NCBI GenBank assembly: GCA_040758355.1
Contig: JBFLWF010000047.1
Span: 1-13,677 of the forward strand
Length of the DNA: 13,677 bases
Source of the DNA: Nitrospirota bacterium
Lineage (GTDB): Bacteria; Nitrospirota; Thermodesulfovibrionia; Thermodesulfovibrionales; Dissulfurispiraceae
Direction of reading: 5' to 3'
Position 1 is the stretch's first letter. Each line of letters begins with the position of its first letter. Under the pieces are notes generated by a model, which searched no databases, was not told the origin of the DNA, and saw only the letters and a list, made by a program, of their open reading frames with translations. The position numbers and the translations under genes were made by a program. Below, one piece after another: positions 8,598 through 13,677 of this stretch.

Positions 8598-9917
<1,320 letters not shown>

Positions 9918-9930
9918 CTTACTATCTCCT

Positions 9931-10137
9931 AAATTGAGCGCTTTTGTAAGGCAGGCACTGCTGCAAGACTTTAAAAAGTCCCCGTTCATGTGCATATGAG
10001 AAATTATAGATGCATCATCTATCAAGTATCCAATGTAGTAGATGACGGATACAAGATAAAAGTTTACACAAGTGCGGAGTTTAAAGTCTTTCCGCAGCAC
10101 CTGCCTTACAAATCTGAATATAAAAACCGCTCAACTT
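9931..10137. ncRNA. Rod-like structured element E1 (candidate ncRNA/cis-regulatory RNA or miniature inverted-repeat element); minus strand favoured
   Basis: Nested inverted repeats: TTGAGCG 9934-9940/CGCTCAA 10128-10134; TTTGTAAGGCAGG 9943-9955/CCTGCCTTACAAA 10100-10112; TGCTGC/GCAGCA; AAGACTTTAAA/TTTAAAGTCTT. Further inner stems pair via G-U only on the minus strand. Homologous to 13204-13413. Confidence 0.6.
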
Positions 10138-10168
10138 GGATAAGGCGGGATTGTCTCCCGCCTTATCC
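10138..10168. terminator. Perfect 13-bp GC-rich hairpin downstream of the glutamate-synthase-family gene (terminator or mRNA-stabilising stem-loop)
   Basis: GGATAAGGCGGGA-ttgtc-TCCCGCCTTATCC, 7 nt from the stop codon at 10176. A T-rich tail (tctttattt) follows on the plus strand only. Confidence 0.6.
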
Positions 10169-10175
10169 TCTTTAT

Positions 10176-11750
10176 TTAGTCAAACAGTATCTTCTCTGCC
10201 TCTTCCATGTCTGCTTCCATCACATAGGGTATCCCTGTCACCTCTGCTGCCTCTTTGGTCAGAGAGACAAGATCGTCCCTGTCGAGATGCTTGATTGCGA
10301 ACTTCCTTGCTCCTGCCATGAGCTGCTGGAGTCCGAGTTTGAGCCTGTCCGCGAATGTGTACATGGCAACTGCTCCCCACGGCAGTTTTTCAAAATCCTT
10401 ACCGAATTTGTTTTTAAGCACTTCTGTGGTTATAAATATCCTCTCCGGCACATCACCGTATTTTTTAACCTCTGTGGGCAGTTTGTCCTCCTGCGCCCAT
10501 TTCTGTATGTTCTTGCCCACAAATGCAGGAATCATGAGCGCCCTTCCCATGCACACTGCCTTGAAGAACGGTGCGCCCATTGCCAGTGCCTTGAATATAT
10601 GGTCTTCGAGGGAGAATCCTCCTGCTATGGCGAGGTCAGGGACATATTTGCCCTTTGCCTTTAACTGTGATGCAAACTGATAAGCGATAGACTGCAGATA
10701 GATTGTAGGGATTCCCCATTCGTTCATCATCCTCCACGGGCTCATTCCTGTGCCGCCGCCTGCACCGTCAATGGTTACAAAATCAACGCCTGCATCAGAT
10801 GCGAACCTCAATGCCCTGGCAAGGTCGGTGATCCTGTATGCACCTGTTTTAAGAGACACAAACTTTGCGCCCGCGTCCCTGTAGTGCTTTACTGCCTTTA
10901 CAAAACCCTCATGCTCAACCATGCCGAGCCTTGAGTGCCTTTCGAACTCCTTGAATTCTCCTTCCTGAAATGCCTTCTGGTTTGTGGGATTTTCAGGGTC
11001 AGGGAGCACAATATACCCCTTCTTCTTTAGTTCCAATGCCCTTTCGAGTGTCTTGAGTTTCACCTCTCCGCCGATGTCCTTTGCACCCTGCCCCCATTTA
11101 AGCTCTATGCAGTTTACTCCCAATTTTTCTATGGCATACTCGGCAGAGCCAAGCCTTGTGTCTTCAACATTTTGCTGGAGGATTATTTCTCCGTAGCCAT
11201 TGTACCACTCTTTAAAACACTTGACCCTCCTTTCAAGTTCCGGAGACTTTGTTACCCTGCCTTTTTTAAATTCAGAATTAGTGTCCATCCCGACAACATT
11301 CTCTCCGATAACCACCATAATCCCTGAAATTGCAGCGCCTATGGCAAGCCCTTCCCAATTGTCCTTTGCTATATCGGTTGAGCCCAATGCCCCTGTAAAA
11401 ACAGGCAGGTTGAGCTTCACCTTATGCTTGTTTCCTATCTCTGTTTCTGTGGAAACAACAGGGAATATTGCCTTGTCAGGGTCAGCTTCAACTCCAACAG
11501 CGCCAACACATGTACCCTGAATATTGATGTGCGAATAATCTACCGGATATTTTTTAGTTGCCCCGGCTGTTATTTTTCCGAAGGGCATGGGATATATAAC
11601 CTCTCTGCCCCTGTATGATGATTTTCCGACCTCGCATGGACCGGGACATCCGTCAAGACATACAGAGCATATGCCTGAATACGGCGCCGGATCCGGGACC
11701 CTGTTCCTTGTCCCTGTTGCTGAACTTGCATTTGGTTGACCTTGATGCAT
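10176..11750 (-). CDS. Stand-alone FMN-binding glutamate synthase family protein with N-terminal Cys cluster
   Basis: FMN-barrel motifs IELKWGQGAKDIGGE, VSLKTGAY, VTIDGAGGGTGMSP, LAIAGG, FKALAMGA. N-terminal CSVCLDGCPGPC. SD GGAGG at 11757-11761. No glutamine amidotransferase domain. Confidence 0.9.
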   Translation of the reverse strand: MHQGQPNASSATGTRNRVPDPAPYSGICSVCLDGCPGPCEVGKSSYRGREVIYPMPFGKITAGATKKYPVDYSHINIQGTCVGAVGVEADPDKAIFPVVSTETEIGNKHKVKLNLPVFTGALGSTDIAKDNWEGLAIGAAISGIMVVIGENVVGMDTNSEFKKGRVTKSPELERRVKCFKEWYNGYGEIILQQNVEDTRLGSAEYAIEKLGVNCIELKWGQGAKDIGGEVKLKTLERALELKKKGYIVLPDPENPTNQKAFQEGEFKEFERHSRLGMVEHEGFVKAVKHYRDAGAKFVSLKTGAYRITDLARALRFASDAGVDFVTIDGAGGGTGMSPWRMMNEWGIPTIYLQSIAYQFASQLKAKGKYVPDLAIAGGFSLEDHIFKALAMGAPFFKAVCMGRALMIPAFVGKNIQKWAQEDKLPTEVKKYGDVPERIFITTEVLKNKFGKDFEKLPWGAVAMYTFADRLKLGLQQLMAGARKFAIKHLDRDDLVSLTKEAAEVTGIPYVMEADMEEAEKILFD

Positions 11751-11815
11751 AAAAGACCTCCAATAAGCAATACTTAATTCTTCTGGGCTTGAATTCAGTA
11801 TTAATAACCCAAAAG

Positions 11816-11845
11816 GGCAAAAAAATACCTAAGGTATTTTTTGCC
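11816..11845. promoter_or_regulatory. 30-bp near-perfect palindrome (operator or terminator) between the XRE regulator and the glutamate-synthase-family gene
   Basis: GGCAAAAAAATACC-taa-GGTATTTTTTGCC with one unpaired A, 30 nt after the XRE stop. Followed by CTTTT on the minus strand. Confidence 0.5.
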
Positions 11846-11875
11846 GGAATTCAGATGTTAAAATTTCATTTTCCT

Positions 11876-13135
11876 TTACTGCCATATTACCAGTATCTCT
11901 GCGTCATCACCTCCTTCATTCTTCCACCCTGATGGAAAGGATTCCTTCAGATAGAGACTATCTCCTGAACTTAACCTTTCAGTCCTGCCGTCAAAGGTTA
12001 TCGAAAGGTCTCCCTTCAGGATATGTATAAACTCGGGTGTTCTGCGATAAAAAAAATGCCTGCTTAATGCTTTATGAGCAGGGAAAAGAATCAGCATTGC
12101 AGAAAGCTTTTCTTCGGAGACTATGCGGTACATTTTTACACCATCTTCCACATTTGCAGGAACAGAAACAACCGTCCCTTTCTTAAAAAACCACTGTCTT
12201 ATATCAGGAGTCTTTTCTTCAAGAAAATCACCCGGCCTTACACCAAGGGCATTGCATATCTGCAGAAAGGAACTGAGAGAGGGGCTTATCTGATTATTCT
12301 CCAATTGAGAGATAAAACTGGGCGTAAGCTCAACCTTATCTGCAATATCCTTCTGGCTCATTCCCCTTGACATTCTTAATTCCTTTATTTTGGTTCCGAT
12401 ATCTGTAACCGGTTCTTTTTTAGGCAATGTTATTACAACACCCATGTCAGCAATCTCGTAAAGATGGGGCTTGAACGCATCCCTATTATGCCTGCCGGTA
12501 AGTTTCAATGCCTTTATGTACAGGTTCTCTCTCCTTTTGTACACGTCAAATACAACCTGTGTGATATGTCTGAGGTTTGCCTTGAATTTCTGGCTGTGGG
12601 CATCCTTTTCCAGTATCCAGTAAGCGACTGTATCGAGGTCGTAGAGACGCGGACACATATATGTAAAAAACTTGTATGTATCGTTTTCATCCTCCCAGAG
12701 ATCCTGCATTCCTGTCAGGCTGTCGAATACATATCTTGCTCCGGGGGAAAGGCTGTCCTCTATGGAATTGAGGGCAGATGTGAACTCATCGATATTCCTC
12801 GGATTGGTTATCCTTACGACATTGATATCTTTCGATGACTCGTAGAATCTTAAAAACGTATTATCATTTTTCCCCTTGCCAGATGTGAAGCAATCGATAA
12901 GAATAAAATGCTCAGGAATAAGAAAGCTGTCGAGTTCATGGAGAACGCTCTGCGGAGACCTGTTGAAGCTCACATAAATTACCTTTTGTGAATCATTGAT
13001 GGAACGAATGATGAAGTTCTTTATAAAGATATCATAAGATGTTCCTGCATCGACCTCCCAGACAACATTATCCCCTATGTACAGGGAATCGATAAGCCTG
13101 TCCAGATCGCTTATGCCGGATGATATTTTGCTCAT
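11876..13135 (-). CDS. Transcriptional regulator: degenerate KaiC/RecA-like N-terminal domain + XRE (HTH_3) domain + C-terminal cupin
   Basis: N-terminus ISSGISDLDRLI...YVSF...YVFDSLT (Walker B-like) without an intact Walker A. HTH IGTKIKELR..GMSQKDIADKVELTPSFISQLENNQISPSL. Cupin EFIHILKGDL...LSSGDSLYL...WKNEG. Confidence 0.88.
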   Translation of the reverse strand: MSKISSGISDLDRLIDSLYIGDNVVWEVDAGTSYDIFIKNFIIRSINDSQKVIYVSFNRSPQSVLHELDSFLIPEHFILIDCFTSGKGKNDNTFLRFYESSKDINVVRITNPRNIDEFTSALNSIEDSLSPGARYVFDSLTGMQDLWEDENDTYKFFTYMCPRLYDLDTVAYWILEKDAHSQKFKANLRHITQVVFDVYKRRENLYIKALKLTGRHNRDAFKPHLYEIADMGVVITLPKKEPVTDIGTKIKELRMSRGMSQKDIADKVELTPSFISQLENNQISPSLSSFLQICNALGVRPGDFLEEKTPDIRQWFFKKGTVVSVPANVEDGVKMYRIVSEEKLSAMLILFPAHKALSRHFFYRRTPEFIHILKGDLSITFDGRTERLSSGDSLYLKESFPSGWKNEGGDDAEILVIWQ

Positions 13136-13159
13136 GGTAAACGGTTGCCTTTTGGCATA

Positions 13160-13189
13160 ACTTTATACGATATAAAAAATCCTTGTCAA
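13160..13189 (-). promoter_or_regulatory. Sigma70-type promoter for the XRE regulator (TTGACA with TATAAA at N16 or TAAAGT at N18)
   Basis: Plus-strand tgtcaa at 13184-13189; tttata at 13162-13167 or acttta at 13160-13165. A small dyad TGCC-N4-GGCA (13146-13157) lies just downstream. Confidence 0.6.
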
Positions 13190-13203
13190 GAACGATGACA
13201 GTG

Positions 13204-13413
13204 CCATAATCCGTAAGCATGGATAGCAGGTATGCTCTCAAAGCCTTAAATAATGCGATGAGAAACCGTATTGCCTGTTTTTCTGCTGAATGTAAAAAGT
13301 GATACTGAAGTTGCCCTTAAACAGCGGGAGGGTTCGGCTCTAAGGTATCGCTATTTAAGGCTTTTCGGCACACCTGCTATCCATATATCAGAAAGTTTCA
13401 TTACGGTTTATGG
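13204..13413. ncRNA. Rod-like structured element E2, homologous to E1
   Basis: Nested inverted repeats: CCATAA-t-CCGTAA 13204-13216/TTACGG-t-TTATGG 13401-13413; ATGGATAGCAGGT 13219-13231/ACCTGCTATCCAT 13372-13384; AAAGCCTTAAATA/TATTTAAGGCTTT; GCGAT/ATCGC; AACC/GGTT; CTGTTT/AAACAG. Confidence 0.6.
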
Positions 13414-13428
13414 ACAGCAAGGCCTCAG

Positions 13429-13458
13429 TTGACAAAGAATATCCGCACTTTTTACAAT
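13429..13458 (+). promoter_or_regulatory. Near-consensus sigma70 promoter TTGACA-N18-TACAAT pointing toward the right window edge
   Basis: TTGACA at 13429-13434, TACAAT at 13453-13458. Confidence 0.7.
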
Positions 13459-13526: not shown

Positions 13527-13677
13527 GCCTGCCTAAATATATTATAAAAATAGGCTCATCGTGGAAGAGAGTGGGTAAACCGATGGACTTGAAGCGGTAT
13601 AACATGGCTTCAAATAATGGGGAAAGAGCTTTCAAAGGGGCGAGAAAATCCGTATGATTACCGTATGGGAAAAAATA

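What the first reader, a model, noticed from the sequence alone, without database searches (positions are those of the whole stretch)
9931..13413. Two homologous ~200-nt rod-shaped elements bracket the nitrogen regulators: candidate undescribed structured RNA (or MITE) family
Seen: E1 (9931-10137) and E2 (13204-13413) lie 3.1 kb apart in the same orientation and share one architecture. Each has an outer stem, a strongly asymmetric internal loop (2 x 15 nt and 2 x 16 nt, both bordered by minus-strand TTCWGAT), a perfect 13-bp stem containing GCAGG/CCTGC, a short bulged TGC stem, an 11-13-bp AT-rich stem and a variable apex. The GCAGG-to-CCTGC span is 154 vs 152 nt. The minus-strand 5' arms align: GCAGGTGCTGCGG-AAAGACTTTAAA vs GCAGGTG-TGCCGAAAAGCCTTAAAT. 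Where stem sequences differ, pairing is kept (TTTGTAAG/CTTACAAA vs ATGGATA/TATCCAT; TTGAGCG/CGCTCAA vs CCGTAA/TTACGG), which is apparent covariation. Most stem mismatches are G-U on the minus strand and A-C on the plus strand. No ORF is conserved between the copies. Inference: single-stranded folding has been selected, and both copies precede a regulator gene (nrpR; KaiC-XRE-cupin), so this may be an RNA layer of nitrogen control. Alternatives are a 6S-like RNA pair, or a domesticated miniature IS derivative. The GCAGG-TGCTG-AAAG ends resemble IS5/IS1182-type termini as I recall them (unverified), and I see no clear target-site duplication.
Basis: partly seen in the sequence, partly recalled or inferred. 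Interest (0 to 1): 0.85.

Follow-up and report, generated by a model that had tools for sequence, protein, structure and literature searches.

The report
IS1380-type miniature transposons with inner hairpin
The two rod-shaped elements are copies of a small jumping-DNA repeat present more than 70 times in this bacterium's genome, not a nitrogen-control RNA; the one odd feature is an inner hairpin found between the ends of several different transposon lineages.

Summary
The two hairpins are real, but they are 2 of 73 near-full ~210-bp copies of a dispersed repeat in this 2.77-Mb genome. A congener has the same nrpR locus without either. Copies carry 5-6-bp target duplications: 11 of 49 exact, 0.7 expected. 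E1's outer stem is the terminal inverted repeat of complete IS1380-family elements; E2's matches another IS1380 clade at 11/13. Both meet the MITE criteria. At most 4 of 76 downstream genes are nitrogen-related, Rfam has no match and the genome's 6S lies elsewhere. The inner stem does covary, but it diverges as fast as the unpaired interior, shows no G-U strand bias and shows one arm overwritten from the other, which favours template switching. Unexplained: one inner hairpin sits between the ends of four IS1380 clades and sometimes has none; its core is conserved; copies are oriented 42:10 relative to transcription. No RNA data were available. No earlier scan note on this repeat was found.

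The parts
9928..10139 (.). E1: 212-bp MITE, type-A ends, E1-type interior
   Evidence: 57 near-full E1-type copies in G000; absent at orthologous site in G004
9928..9944 (+). E1 left terminal inverted repeat; 17 of 18 identical to the left end of IS1380 element L155 (9928-9945); its terminal AGG on the minus strand forms part of the AGGAGA upstream of the nrpR ATG
   Evidence: for the ribosome-site reading (inference)
9943..9975 (+). E1 inner hairpin, left arm (variable perfect stem + CAGG + AAGACTTT core)
9976..10079 (.). E1 interior; sequence conserved within the E1 subfamilies, no consensus structure
10080..10112 (+). E1 inner hairpin, right arm
10123..10139 (+). E1 right terminal inverted repeat (decayed, one base short)
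10138..10168 (.). Host 13-bp hairpin after the glutamate-synthase-like gene; T-tail only on the plus strand; a related hairpin exists in the empty G004 allele
13204..13413 (.). E2: 210-bp MITE, type-B ends, E2-type interior
   Evidence: 16 near-full E2-type copies in G000; absent in G004
13204..13216 (+). E2 left terminal repeat CCATAATCCGTAA; best 11/13 to IS1380 ends of the CCTGAATCCGT(G/A)A clade
13401..13413 (+). E2 right terminal repeat
13219..13259 (+). E2 inner hairpin, left arm
13347..13384 (+). E2 inner hairpin, right arm
13198..13203 (+). Left copy of degenerate 6-bp target duplication (ACAGTG)
13414..13419 (+). Right copy of degenerate 6-bp target duplication (ACAGCA)
13160..13189 (-). 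Predicted sigma70 promoter (TTGACA-18-TAAAGT) between E2 and the KaiC-XRE-cupin gene; both boxes also present in G004
   Evidence: consensus match only
13429..13458 (+). Predicted divergent sigma70 promoter (TTGACA-18-TACAAT); E2 sits between the two -35 boxes
   Evidence: consensus match only
8925..9917 (-). nrpR (context)
   Evidence: PF01995, PF08461
10176..11750 (-). FMN glutamate-synthase-domain gene (context)
   Evidence: PF01645
11876..13135 (-). KaiC-like ATPase/XRE/cupin gene (context)
   Evidence: PF06745, PF01381, PF07883

Best explanation
E1 and E2 are independent insertions of non-autonomous miniature transposons (MITEs) moved in trans by IS1380-family DDE transposases. SHOWN: the unit found at one genome's site and missing at another's is the whole ~210-bp element from outer repeat to outer repeat; it is flanked by mostly 5-6-bp duplications; E1's outer stem equals the terminal repeat of a complete IS1380 group present in a congener. 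INFERRED: the transposase binds these ends and inserts the element into AT-rich intergenic DNA; E2 uses a related IS1380 clade whose exact member was not found. The long inner stem is passenger DNA kept paired mainly by arm-to-arm template switching (inferred). Copies survive mostly in one orientation relative to transcription, probably because the other orientation is less tolerated in mRNA or this one aids the next gene (inferred). Any effect on nrpR is a lineage-specific side effect of insertion.
For: 73 near-full copies, 42 of the 49 with clear ends 209-218 bp long. Both are absent from the syntenic locus in G004 at 89-93% identity. 10 of 12 orthologous-locus stretches from relatives gave no profile hit. 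In the reciprocal test, of 55 element rows from G002/G003/G004/G016, 21 were empty in G000, 3 filled, 7 other, 16 without syntenic flanks and 8 at contig edges; the 21 reduce to 17 usable sites, 12 of which have an exact duplication of 5 bp or more. In G000, exact 5- or 6-bp duplications flank 11 of 49 copies (0.71 expected), near-exact 25 (5.4 expected). L102 in G004 encodes an IS1380 transposase (NF033539, 207.5 bits, cut-off 180). Its complete relatives L137, L138, L139, L148 and L155 end in CCTAA(A/G)TTGAGCGATT...AATCGCTCA/CTATTTAGG, with 5-bp duplications at L139, L148 and L155. A 5-bp repeat is listed for IS1247 of this family (PMC3281130 Table 2, passage). The variable stem diverges at 11-13.5%, like the interior (12.7%), yet has 27 compensated double changes against 3.9 expected, while the outer repeat shows none in excess. 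Derived single changes are 28 G-U vs 20 A-C (p=0.31). In copy C22:28790 the right arm has four changes that copy the left arm, including its private substitution.
Against: No IS1380 transposase was found in G000 itself (99% complete), nor the type-A one in G001/G002, so mobility here is past or borrowed. E1 has no recognisable duplication. No transposon with exactly E2's ends was found (best 11/13 among 50 elements with called ends of 80 loci). The inner core is about twice as conserved as the interior (6-7%), has no counterpart in the IS1380 loci tested, and occurs in G003 without IS1380 ends. G006 also has a copy inside the nitrogen cluster, in front of glnA. The orientation bias shows the element is not neutral in transcripts. 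Movement was not shown experimentally.
Confidence: 0.87

Rival explanations
1. The inner hairpin is a separate selfish module, recognised by an unidentified protein or folded during its own movement. IS1380 ends captured it several times, and pairing is selected at the mobility step. This adds to, rather than replaces, the MITE reading.
For: The same inner arms occur between four kinds of IS1380-like ends: A and B; C, resembling the ends in L170/L184; D, sharing TTGCCGATAGAAA with the IS at G004:C60 (L277, L279). In G003 they also occur without such ends and in a head-to-tail triple (L272, L280, L282). The core arms are conserved across unrelated interiors. About 97-bp short forms with similar C-rich loops exist in three subfamilies.
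Against: No autonomous element with these inner ends was found. The IS5 ends in 17 loci plus the resident copy are 1-2 nt out of register and are flanked by YTAR-type 4-mers. The two Y1 transposase loci show no such hairpin beside them. At clean empty sites the junction is at the outer ends. The copies without ends could be products of recombination or loose end recognition.
Confidence: 0.22
2. Inserted copies have been co-opted as general post-transcriptional elements (mRNA stability, RNase III sites, translation), which selects for pairing and orientation; E1 tunes nrpR in this lineage.
For: 42 vs 10 orientation in co-directional gaps (p=9e-6). In complete G003 the bias follows genes rather than replichores (10 vs 0 co-directional among 24 loci; 7 lagging-strand copies, none in the minority class). 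E1 abuts the nrpR ribosome-binding site. The inner stem covaries (0/500 shuffles).
Against: Sites are mostly not shared between congeners. The two window copies are in the minority orientation, and the G006 copy is in the opposite one at another position. There is no strand preference in folding energy (43 of 73, p=0.08) or in derived G-U changes. Template switching can give the same covariation (PMC8794818, PMC5941160, abstracts). Tolerance explains the orientation bias as well as function does.
Confidence: 0.15
3. A conserved nitrogen-specific structured RNA family (riboswitch, sRNA or 6S-like pair), as first proposed.
For: Strong folds, inner-stem covariation, two copies by nitrogen genes here and one before glnA in G006; one further copy precedes an ammonium transporter.
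Against: Absent from the orthologous locus in the closest congener. At most 4 of 76 downstream genes are nitrogen-related; the rest include tRNA synthetases, gyrA, ribosomal proteins, mur genes and groES. 24 of 73 copies have another within 3.5 kb, so pairs are common. No Rfam match; a real 6S lies at C5:2907-3096 (82.7 bits). E2 is upstream of the predicted promoter. The interior has no consensus structure.
Confidence: 0.02

Closest known systems
Bacterial MITEs such as Nezha (cyanobacteria), Chunjie (Geobacter), MITEPye1 (Paracoccus)
   Same: Small, non-coding, terminal repeats shared with an autonomous IS, direct repeats, intergenic, long predicted stem-loops, filled and empty sites (PMC3184786 and PMC11578231, passages).
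   Different: The partner here is IS1380. A second, inner inverted repeat is shared across subfamilies that have different terminal repeats and different interiors.
bcr1 repeat of the Bacillus cereus group
   Same: About 155 bp, non-conserved positions, 5-bp direct repeats, compensatory changes that keep a fold (PMC3184786, passage). It is the closest precedent for a covarying mobile repeat.
   Different: bcr1 is described as cruciform-like and transcribed; here the fold is one rod with an unstructured interior, transcription is untested, and a cognate transposase family is identified. No sequence comparison to bcr1 was made.
IS1380-family elements and their transposable modules (ISEcp1, ISPme1, IS1247)
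   Same: CC-starting terminal repeats, 5-bp duplications; the family is described as misrecognising ends and capturing adjacent DNA (PMC9330008, passages), which could explain capture of the hairpin and ragged ends.
   Different: No transposase is encoded, both ends are kept, and the size is ~210 bp (~97 bp in short forms). No convincing outward promoter was shown.
IS5-family element resident in this genome (contig C87)
   Same: Its ends CAGG(C/G)TGCTGAAAAA resemble the inner arms.
   Different: The inner arms carry 1-2 extra bases, lack YTAR flanks and are not at the insertion junction.
6S RNA (RF00013)
   Same: Similar length and rod shape.
   Different: No model match; the genome has its own 6S gene; multicopy and mobile.

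Membership tests
MITE | Small and without a transposase or conserved ORF | tested here: met
   ~210 bp; a stop-free frame across only 4 (minus) and 1 (plus) of 39 E1 copies and 1 of 5 E2 copies
MITE | Many dispersed, intergenic copies | tested here: met
   73 near-full copies; 1 of 68 scored overlaps a called gene
MITE | Terminal inverted repeats shared with an autonomous IS (E1, type A) | tested here: met
MITE | Terminal inverted repeats shared with an autonomous IS (E2, type B) | tested here: inconclusive
   best 11/13 to an IS1380 clade; no exact partner
MITE | Target-site duplication | tested here: met
   11 of 49 exact vs 0.71 expected; 12 of 17 at sites with an empty orthologue; E1 itself has none, E2 4 of 6
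MITE | Filled and empty orthologous sites | tested here: met
MITE | Mobilisation in trans by the cognate transposase | not testable with these tools
   needs a transposition assay; no IS1380 gene found in G000
IS5/IS1182-derived MITE | Insertion junction at IS5-type ends with YTAR target | tested here: not met
   junctions lie 20-35 nt further out, at IS1380-type ends
6S RNA | Match to RF00013 | tested here: not met
Cis-regulatory RNA motif for nitrogen genes | Conserved position upstream of functionally related genes | tested here: not met
Cis-regulatory RNA motif for nitrogen genes | Covarying base pairs | tested here: met
   12 of 24 pairs with two-sided changes, 0/500 shuffles; related copies inflate this and template switching explains it
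Cis-regulatory RNA motif for nitrogen genes | Transcribed, with ligand or condition response | not testable with these tools
   no RNA holder listed
REP/REPIN with RAYT | Repeat copies flanking a Y1 transposase gene | tested here: not met
   two Y1 loci in G000, read by eye over 1.2 kb each, show no such element

The most novel reading that the evidence does not exclude
The inner hairpin is a hitchhiking module of its own kind: a sequence-constrained rod with no known mobiliser that has been captured between the ends of at least four IS1380 clades, exchanges ends and interiors, can also spread without ends, and whose fold and orientation are selected, either as a transposition intermediate or as an mRNA element laid over dozens of housekeeping operons.
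Probability: 0.2. Interest if true: 0.62.

Novelty: new variant of a known kind. Interest (0 to 1): 0.3.

Why it matters
It removes a false lead: a mobile palindrome can give strong folds and real covariation without being a regulatory RNA, so motif searches in these genomes should mask it. It also gives a tractable set of IS1380-type MITEs with many filled/empty pairs, useful for the IS1380 pathway, which a 2022 review calls not known (PMC9330008, passage). If the inner rod has its own recogniser, it would be a nested parasite of a parasite with genome-wide reach into mRNAs.

Tried and rejected
Rfam on the window (one E=4 chance hit) and on six loci with other copies (no hit on an element at a meaningful score). 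IS1380 transposase in G000: none found. IS5/IS1182 as mobiliser: rejected on register, target and junction. Y1/RAYT: no association seen. Origin of the interiors in IS1380 bodies: only E>0.8 hits in 132 loci; the strong hits in 45 earlier loci were separate copies near an IS. Exact partner for type-B ends: not found in the family, order or 80 metagenome loci; one pattern search failed on syntax. Inner element inserted into a target palindrome: rejected because the empty alleles lack the variable stem. Replication strand as the cause of the orientation bias: weaker than gene direction (38 of 57 in G000; 17 of 24 leading in G003). Conserved peptide: rejected. Expression: no RNA holder listed. 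Contigs of runs X2, X4 and X5 skip E1 or E2, but their E2 junction is nearly the G004 allele, so they are not counted as independent. Literature: no paper on IS1380-derived MITEs or on a MITE in this group surfaced; ISfinder and subscription journals were not searchable, and no supplements were read, so prior description is not excluded. Earlier scan notes: none on this repeat.
Full report
OBSERVATION. Both hairpins are in the sequence as described and fold much better than shuffles on the minus strand (z -8.9, -7.9). They share only the inner arms; their interiors align poorly. Rfam gives nothing. The neighbours are nrpR, a glutamate-synthase-domain gene and a KaiC-XRE-cupin gene, followed by P-II and glnA, all on the minus strand.

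A DISPERSED REPEAT. Iterated nhmmer on the 2.77-Mb genome finds 61 E1-type and 21 E2-type hits; 57 and 16 of them, 73 in all, span at least 140 bases. Of the 49 with both ends well defined, 42 are 209-218 bp long. With my own crude gene calls (2572 genes), 1 of 68 scorable copies overlaps a gene. Copies cluster: 24 of 73 have another within 3.5 kb, against a mean of 11 for random junctions, so a pair 3.1 kb apart is common. Of 76 genes that copies precede, 69 have a Pfam match at 1e-8; at most four are nitrogen-related (nrpR, the KaiC-XRE-cupin gene by position, an ammonium transporter, a FeMo-co-domain protein), the rest being housekeeping genes such as tRNA synthetases, gyrA, ribosomal proteins, mur genes and groES. 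The E1 core matched in 12 of 201 genomes of the class, strongly only within the family (four candidates scored per genome).

MOBILITY. Congener G004 has the same locus at 89-93% identity with neither element. Ten of 12 orthologous-locus stretches from relatives gave no profile hit and one a weak hit (E 0.1). One, G006, has an E1-type copy at a different place, between nrpR and glnA, in the opposite orientation to transcription; I count it as an independent insertion but note it as the best point for a nitrogen link. In the reciprocal test, 55 element rows from G002, G003, G004 and G016 gave 21 empty in G000, 3 filled, 7 other, 16 without syntenic flanks and 8 at contig edges. From the 21 I dropped two duplicate-strand rows, one doubtful mapping (L075) and one site where G000 holds a deleted remnant (L083). 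Of the remaining 17, 12 have an exact duplication of at least 5 bp; several are 5-6 bp at intact ends and some 8-14 bp, mostly with an eroded left end (end shifts allowed, no null). In G000, exact 5- or 6-bp duplications flank 11 of 49 copies (0.71 expected from mismatched flanks), near-exact ones 25 (5.4).

THE TRANSPOSASE. G004 encodes an IS1380 transposase (NF033539 above cut-off) whose left end reads CCCAAGTTGAGCGATTTT and whose right end reads AGAATCGCTCAATTTAGG. Complete relatives (58-86% identity) have the same ends and, in L139, L148 and L155, 5-bp duplications. E1's outer stem aligns to these ends. E2's end matches at best 11/13 a second IS1380 clade, CCTGAATCCGT(G/A)A; its exact partner was not found. 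No IS1380 gene was found in G000. The resident IS5 element resembles the inner arms but is out of register and targets YTAR, and the junctions are not at the inner arms.

COVARIATION. It is real in the inner stem: 12 of 24 pairs show two-sided changes in 59 E1a-type copies, above all 500 shuffles and all slid controls (related copies inflate this). Among 56 copies of one subtype there are 27 compensated double changes against 3.9 expected, in 11 distinct stems; among 23 of another, 6 against 1.3 (4 distant copies set aside); the terminal repeat shows 8 doubles against 7.8. Three results favour DNA-level template switching over selection on an RNA. The variable stem diverges as fast as the unpaired interior (13.5% and 11% vs 12.7% in 36 rows; the row filter lowers the 3' figure). 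Derived single changes are not strand-biased (28 G-U vs 20 A-C, p=0.31, counted), nor is folding energy (43 of 73, p=0.08). In copy C22:28790 one arm has four changes that copy the other, including its private substitution. Template switching is reported to create and maintain such pairing (PMC8794818 and PMC5941160; I saw abstracts and opening text only). Selection is not excluded. RNAalifold finds pairs only in the arms, none in the interior.

WHAT REMAINS UNEXPLAINED. The same inner arms occur between four types of IS1380-like ends, with mixed combinations of ends and interiors, and in G003 without ends and in a head-to-tail triple. The core of the arms diverges at half the interior rate. 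Nine ~97-bp short forms of the E1 type, and similar ones in two other subfamilies, replace the interior with a C-rich loop; whether they are precursors or deletions is open. Orientation is biased 42:10 in co-directional gaps (p=9e-6) and follows genes more than replichores in G003 (crude calls); both window copies are in the minority orientation. Loose end recognition and capture of adjacent DNA are described for IS1380 members (PMC9330008, passages) and could explain repeated capture (inference).

LOCAL EFFECTS (inference). E2 lies between two divergent sigma70-like promoters, upstream of the one that faces the KaiC-XRE-cupin gene, so it is probably outside that mRNA. E1 probably lies in a polycistronic mRNA, since the hairpin after the upstream gene has no U-tail on that strand, and it abuts the nrpR ribosome-binding site. 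A modest effect on nrpR is possible but would be lineage-specific. No RNA run was listed.

COMPARISON. It works like, and meets every criterion testable here for, a bacterial MITE (E1 fully; E2 with an inexact partner). Nezha, Chunjie, MITEPye1 and above all bcr1, which has 5-bp repeats and compensatory changes, are the precedents (PMC3184786, PMC11578231, passages). IS1247 is listed with a 5-bp repeat (PMC3281130, table passage). It is not 6S. Searches surfaced no description of IS1380-derived MITEs of this kind; I saw listings only for most hits, no supplements, and could not search ISfinder. The host's placement in Nitrospirota comes from an earlier scan note and was not tested here.

VERDICT. 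IS1380-type MITE family with a shared inner hairpin: 0.87. Nitrogen RNA: 0.02. New variant of a known kind; interest 0.30.

Noticed in passing
window 13556-13677: End of a multicopy IS that breaks the assembly; 25 contigs carry 13586-13635 and the sequence matches the end of contig C85, whose ORF looks ISL3-like (label recalled, not tested).
   Followed up: partly
window 11820-11842: Near-perfect AT-rich palindrome upstream of the glutamate-synthase-like gene, a candidate operator. No GGAA-N6-TTCC (recalled NrpR consensus) was found from 7001 on.
   Followed up: partly
window 9918-10100, minus strand: E1 is open in frame with nrpR, giving a possible 61-codon extension from a GTG; such open frames are rare among other copies.
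   Followed up: partly
G000:C83 insertion sites: An IS1182-like element with 14 left-end flanks; nearly all lie a few bases from an ACCTCC/CCTCC (reverse Shine-Dalgarno) sequence, so it seems to target ribosome-binding sites in fixed orientation.
   Followed up: no
G000:C8:13953, C1:126352, C13:70747, C3:47036, C44:10326, C27:13848, C29:15465, C57:7734, C55:9166: Several other families of 140-220-bp rods with variable perfect outer stems; some have IS1380-like ends, others different or no terminal repeats.
   Followed up: partly
L071 vs G000:C3:118663-118955; L078 vs G000:C27:13620-14076: Orthologous sites hold an E2-type copy in a congener and a different rod family in G000, suggesting insertion hotspots.
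   Followed up: no
L032, L033, L040, L102 (G004): A 27-bp mini-palindrome (CCTG...CAGG) is inserted in the loops and stems of many G004 copies.
   Followed up: no
L272, L282, L284 (G003): Head-to-tail arrays of the inner hairpin and copies flanked by ~20-26-bp direct repeats, hinting at circle integration or slippage.
   Followed up: no
G000:C9:93834-94025: A second, sub-threshold 6S-model match (34.1 bits, E 3e-5) besides the true 6S at C5.
   Followed up: no
window 11876-13135: KaiC-like ATPase, XRE and cupin domains fused in one protein, syntenic with the glutamate-synthase-like gene and nrpR in several families of the order: a candidate nitrogen regulator.
   Followed up: no
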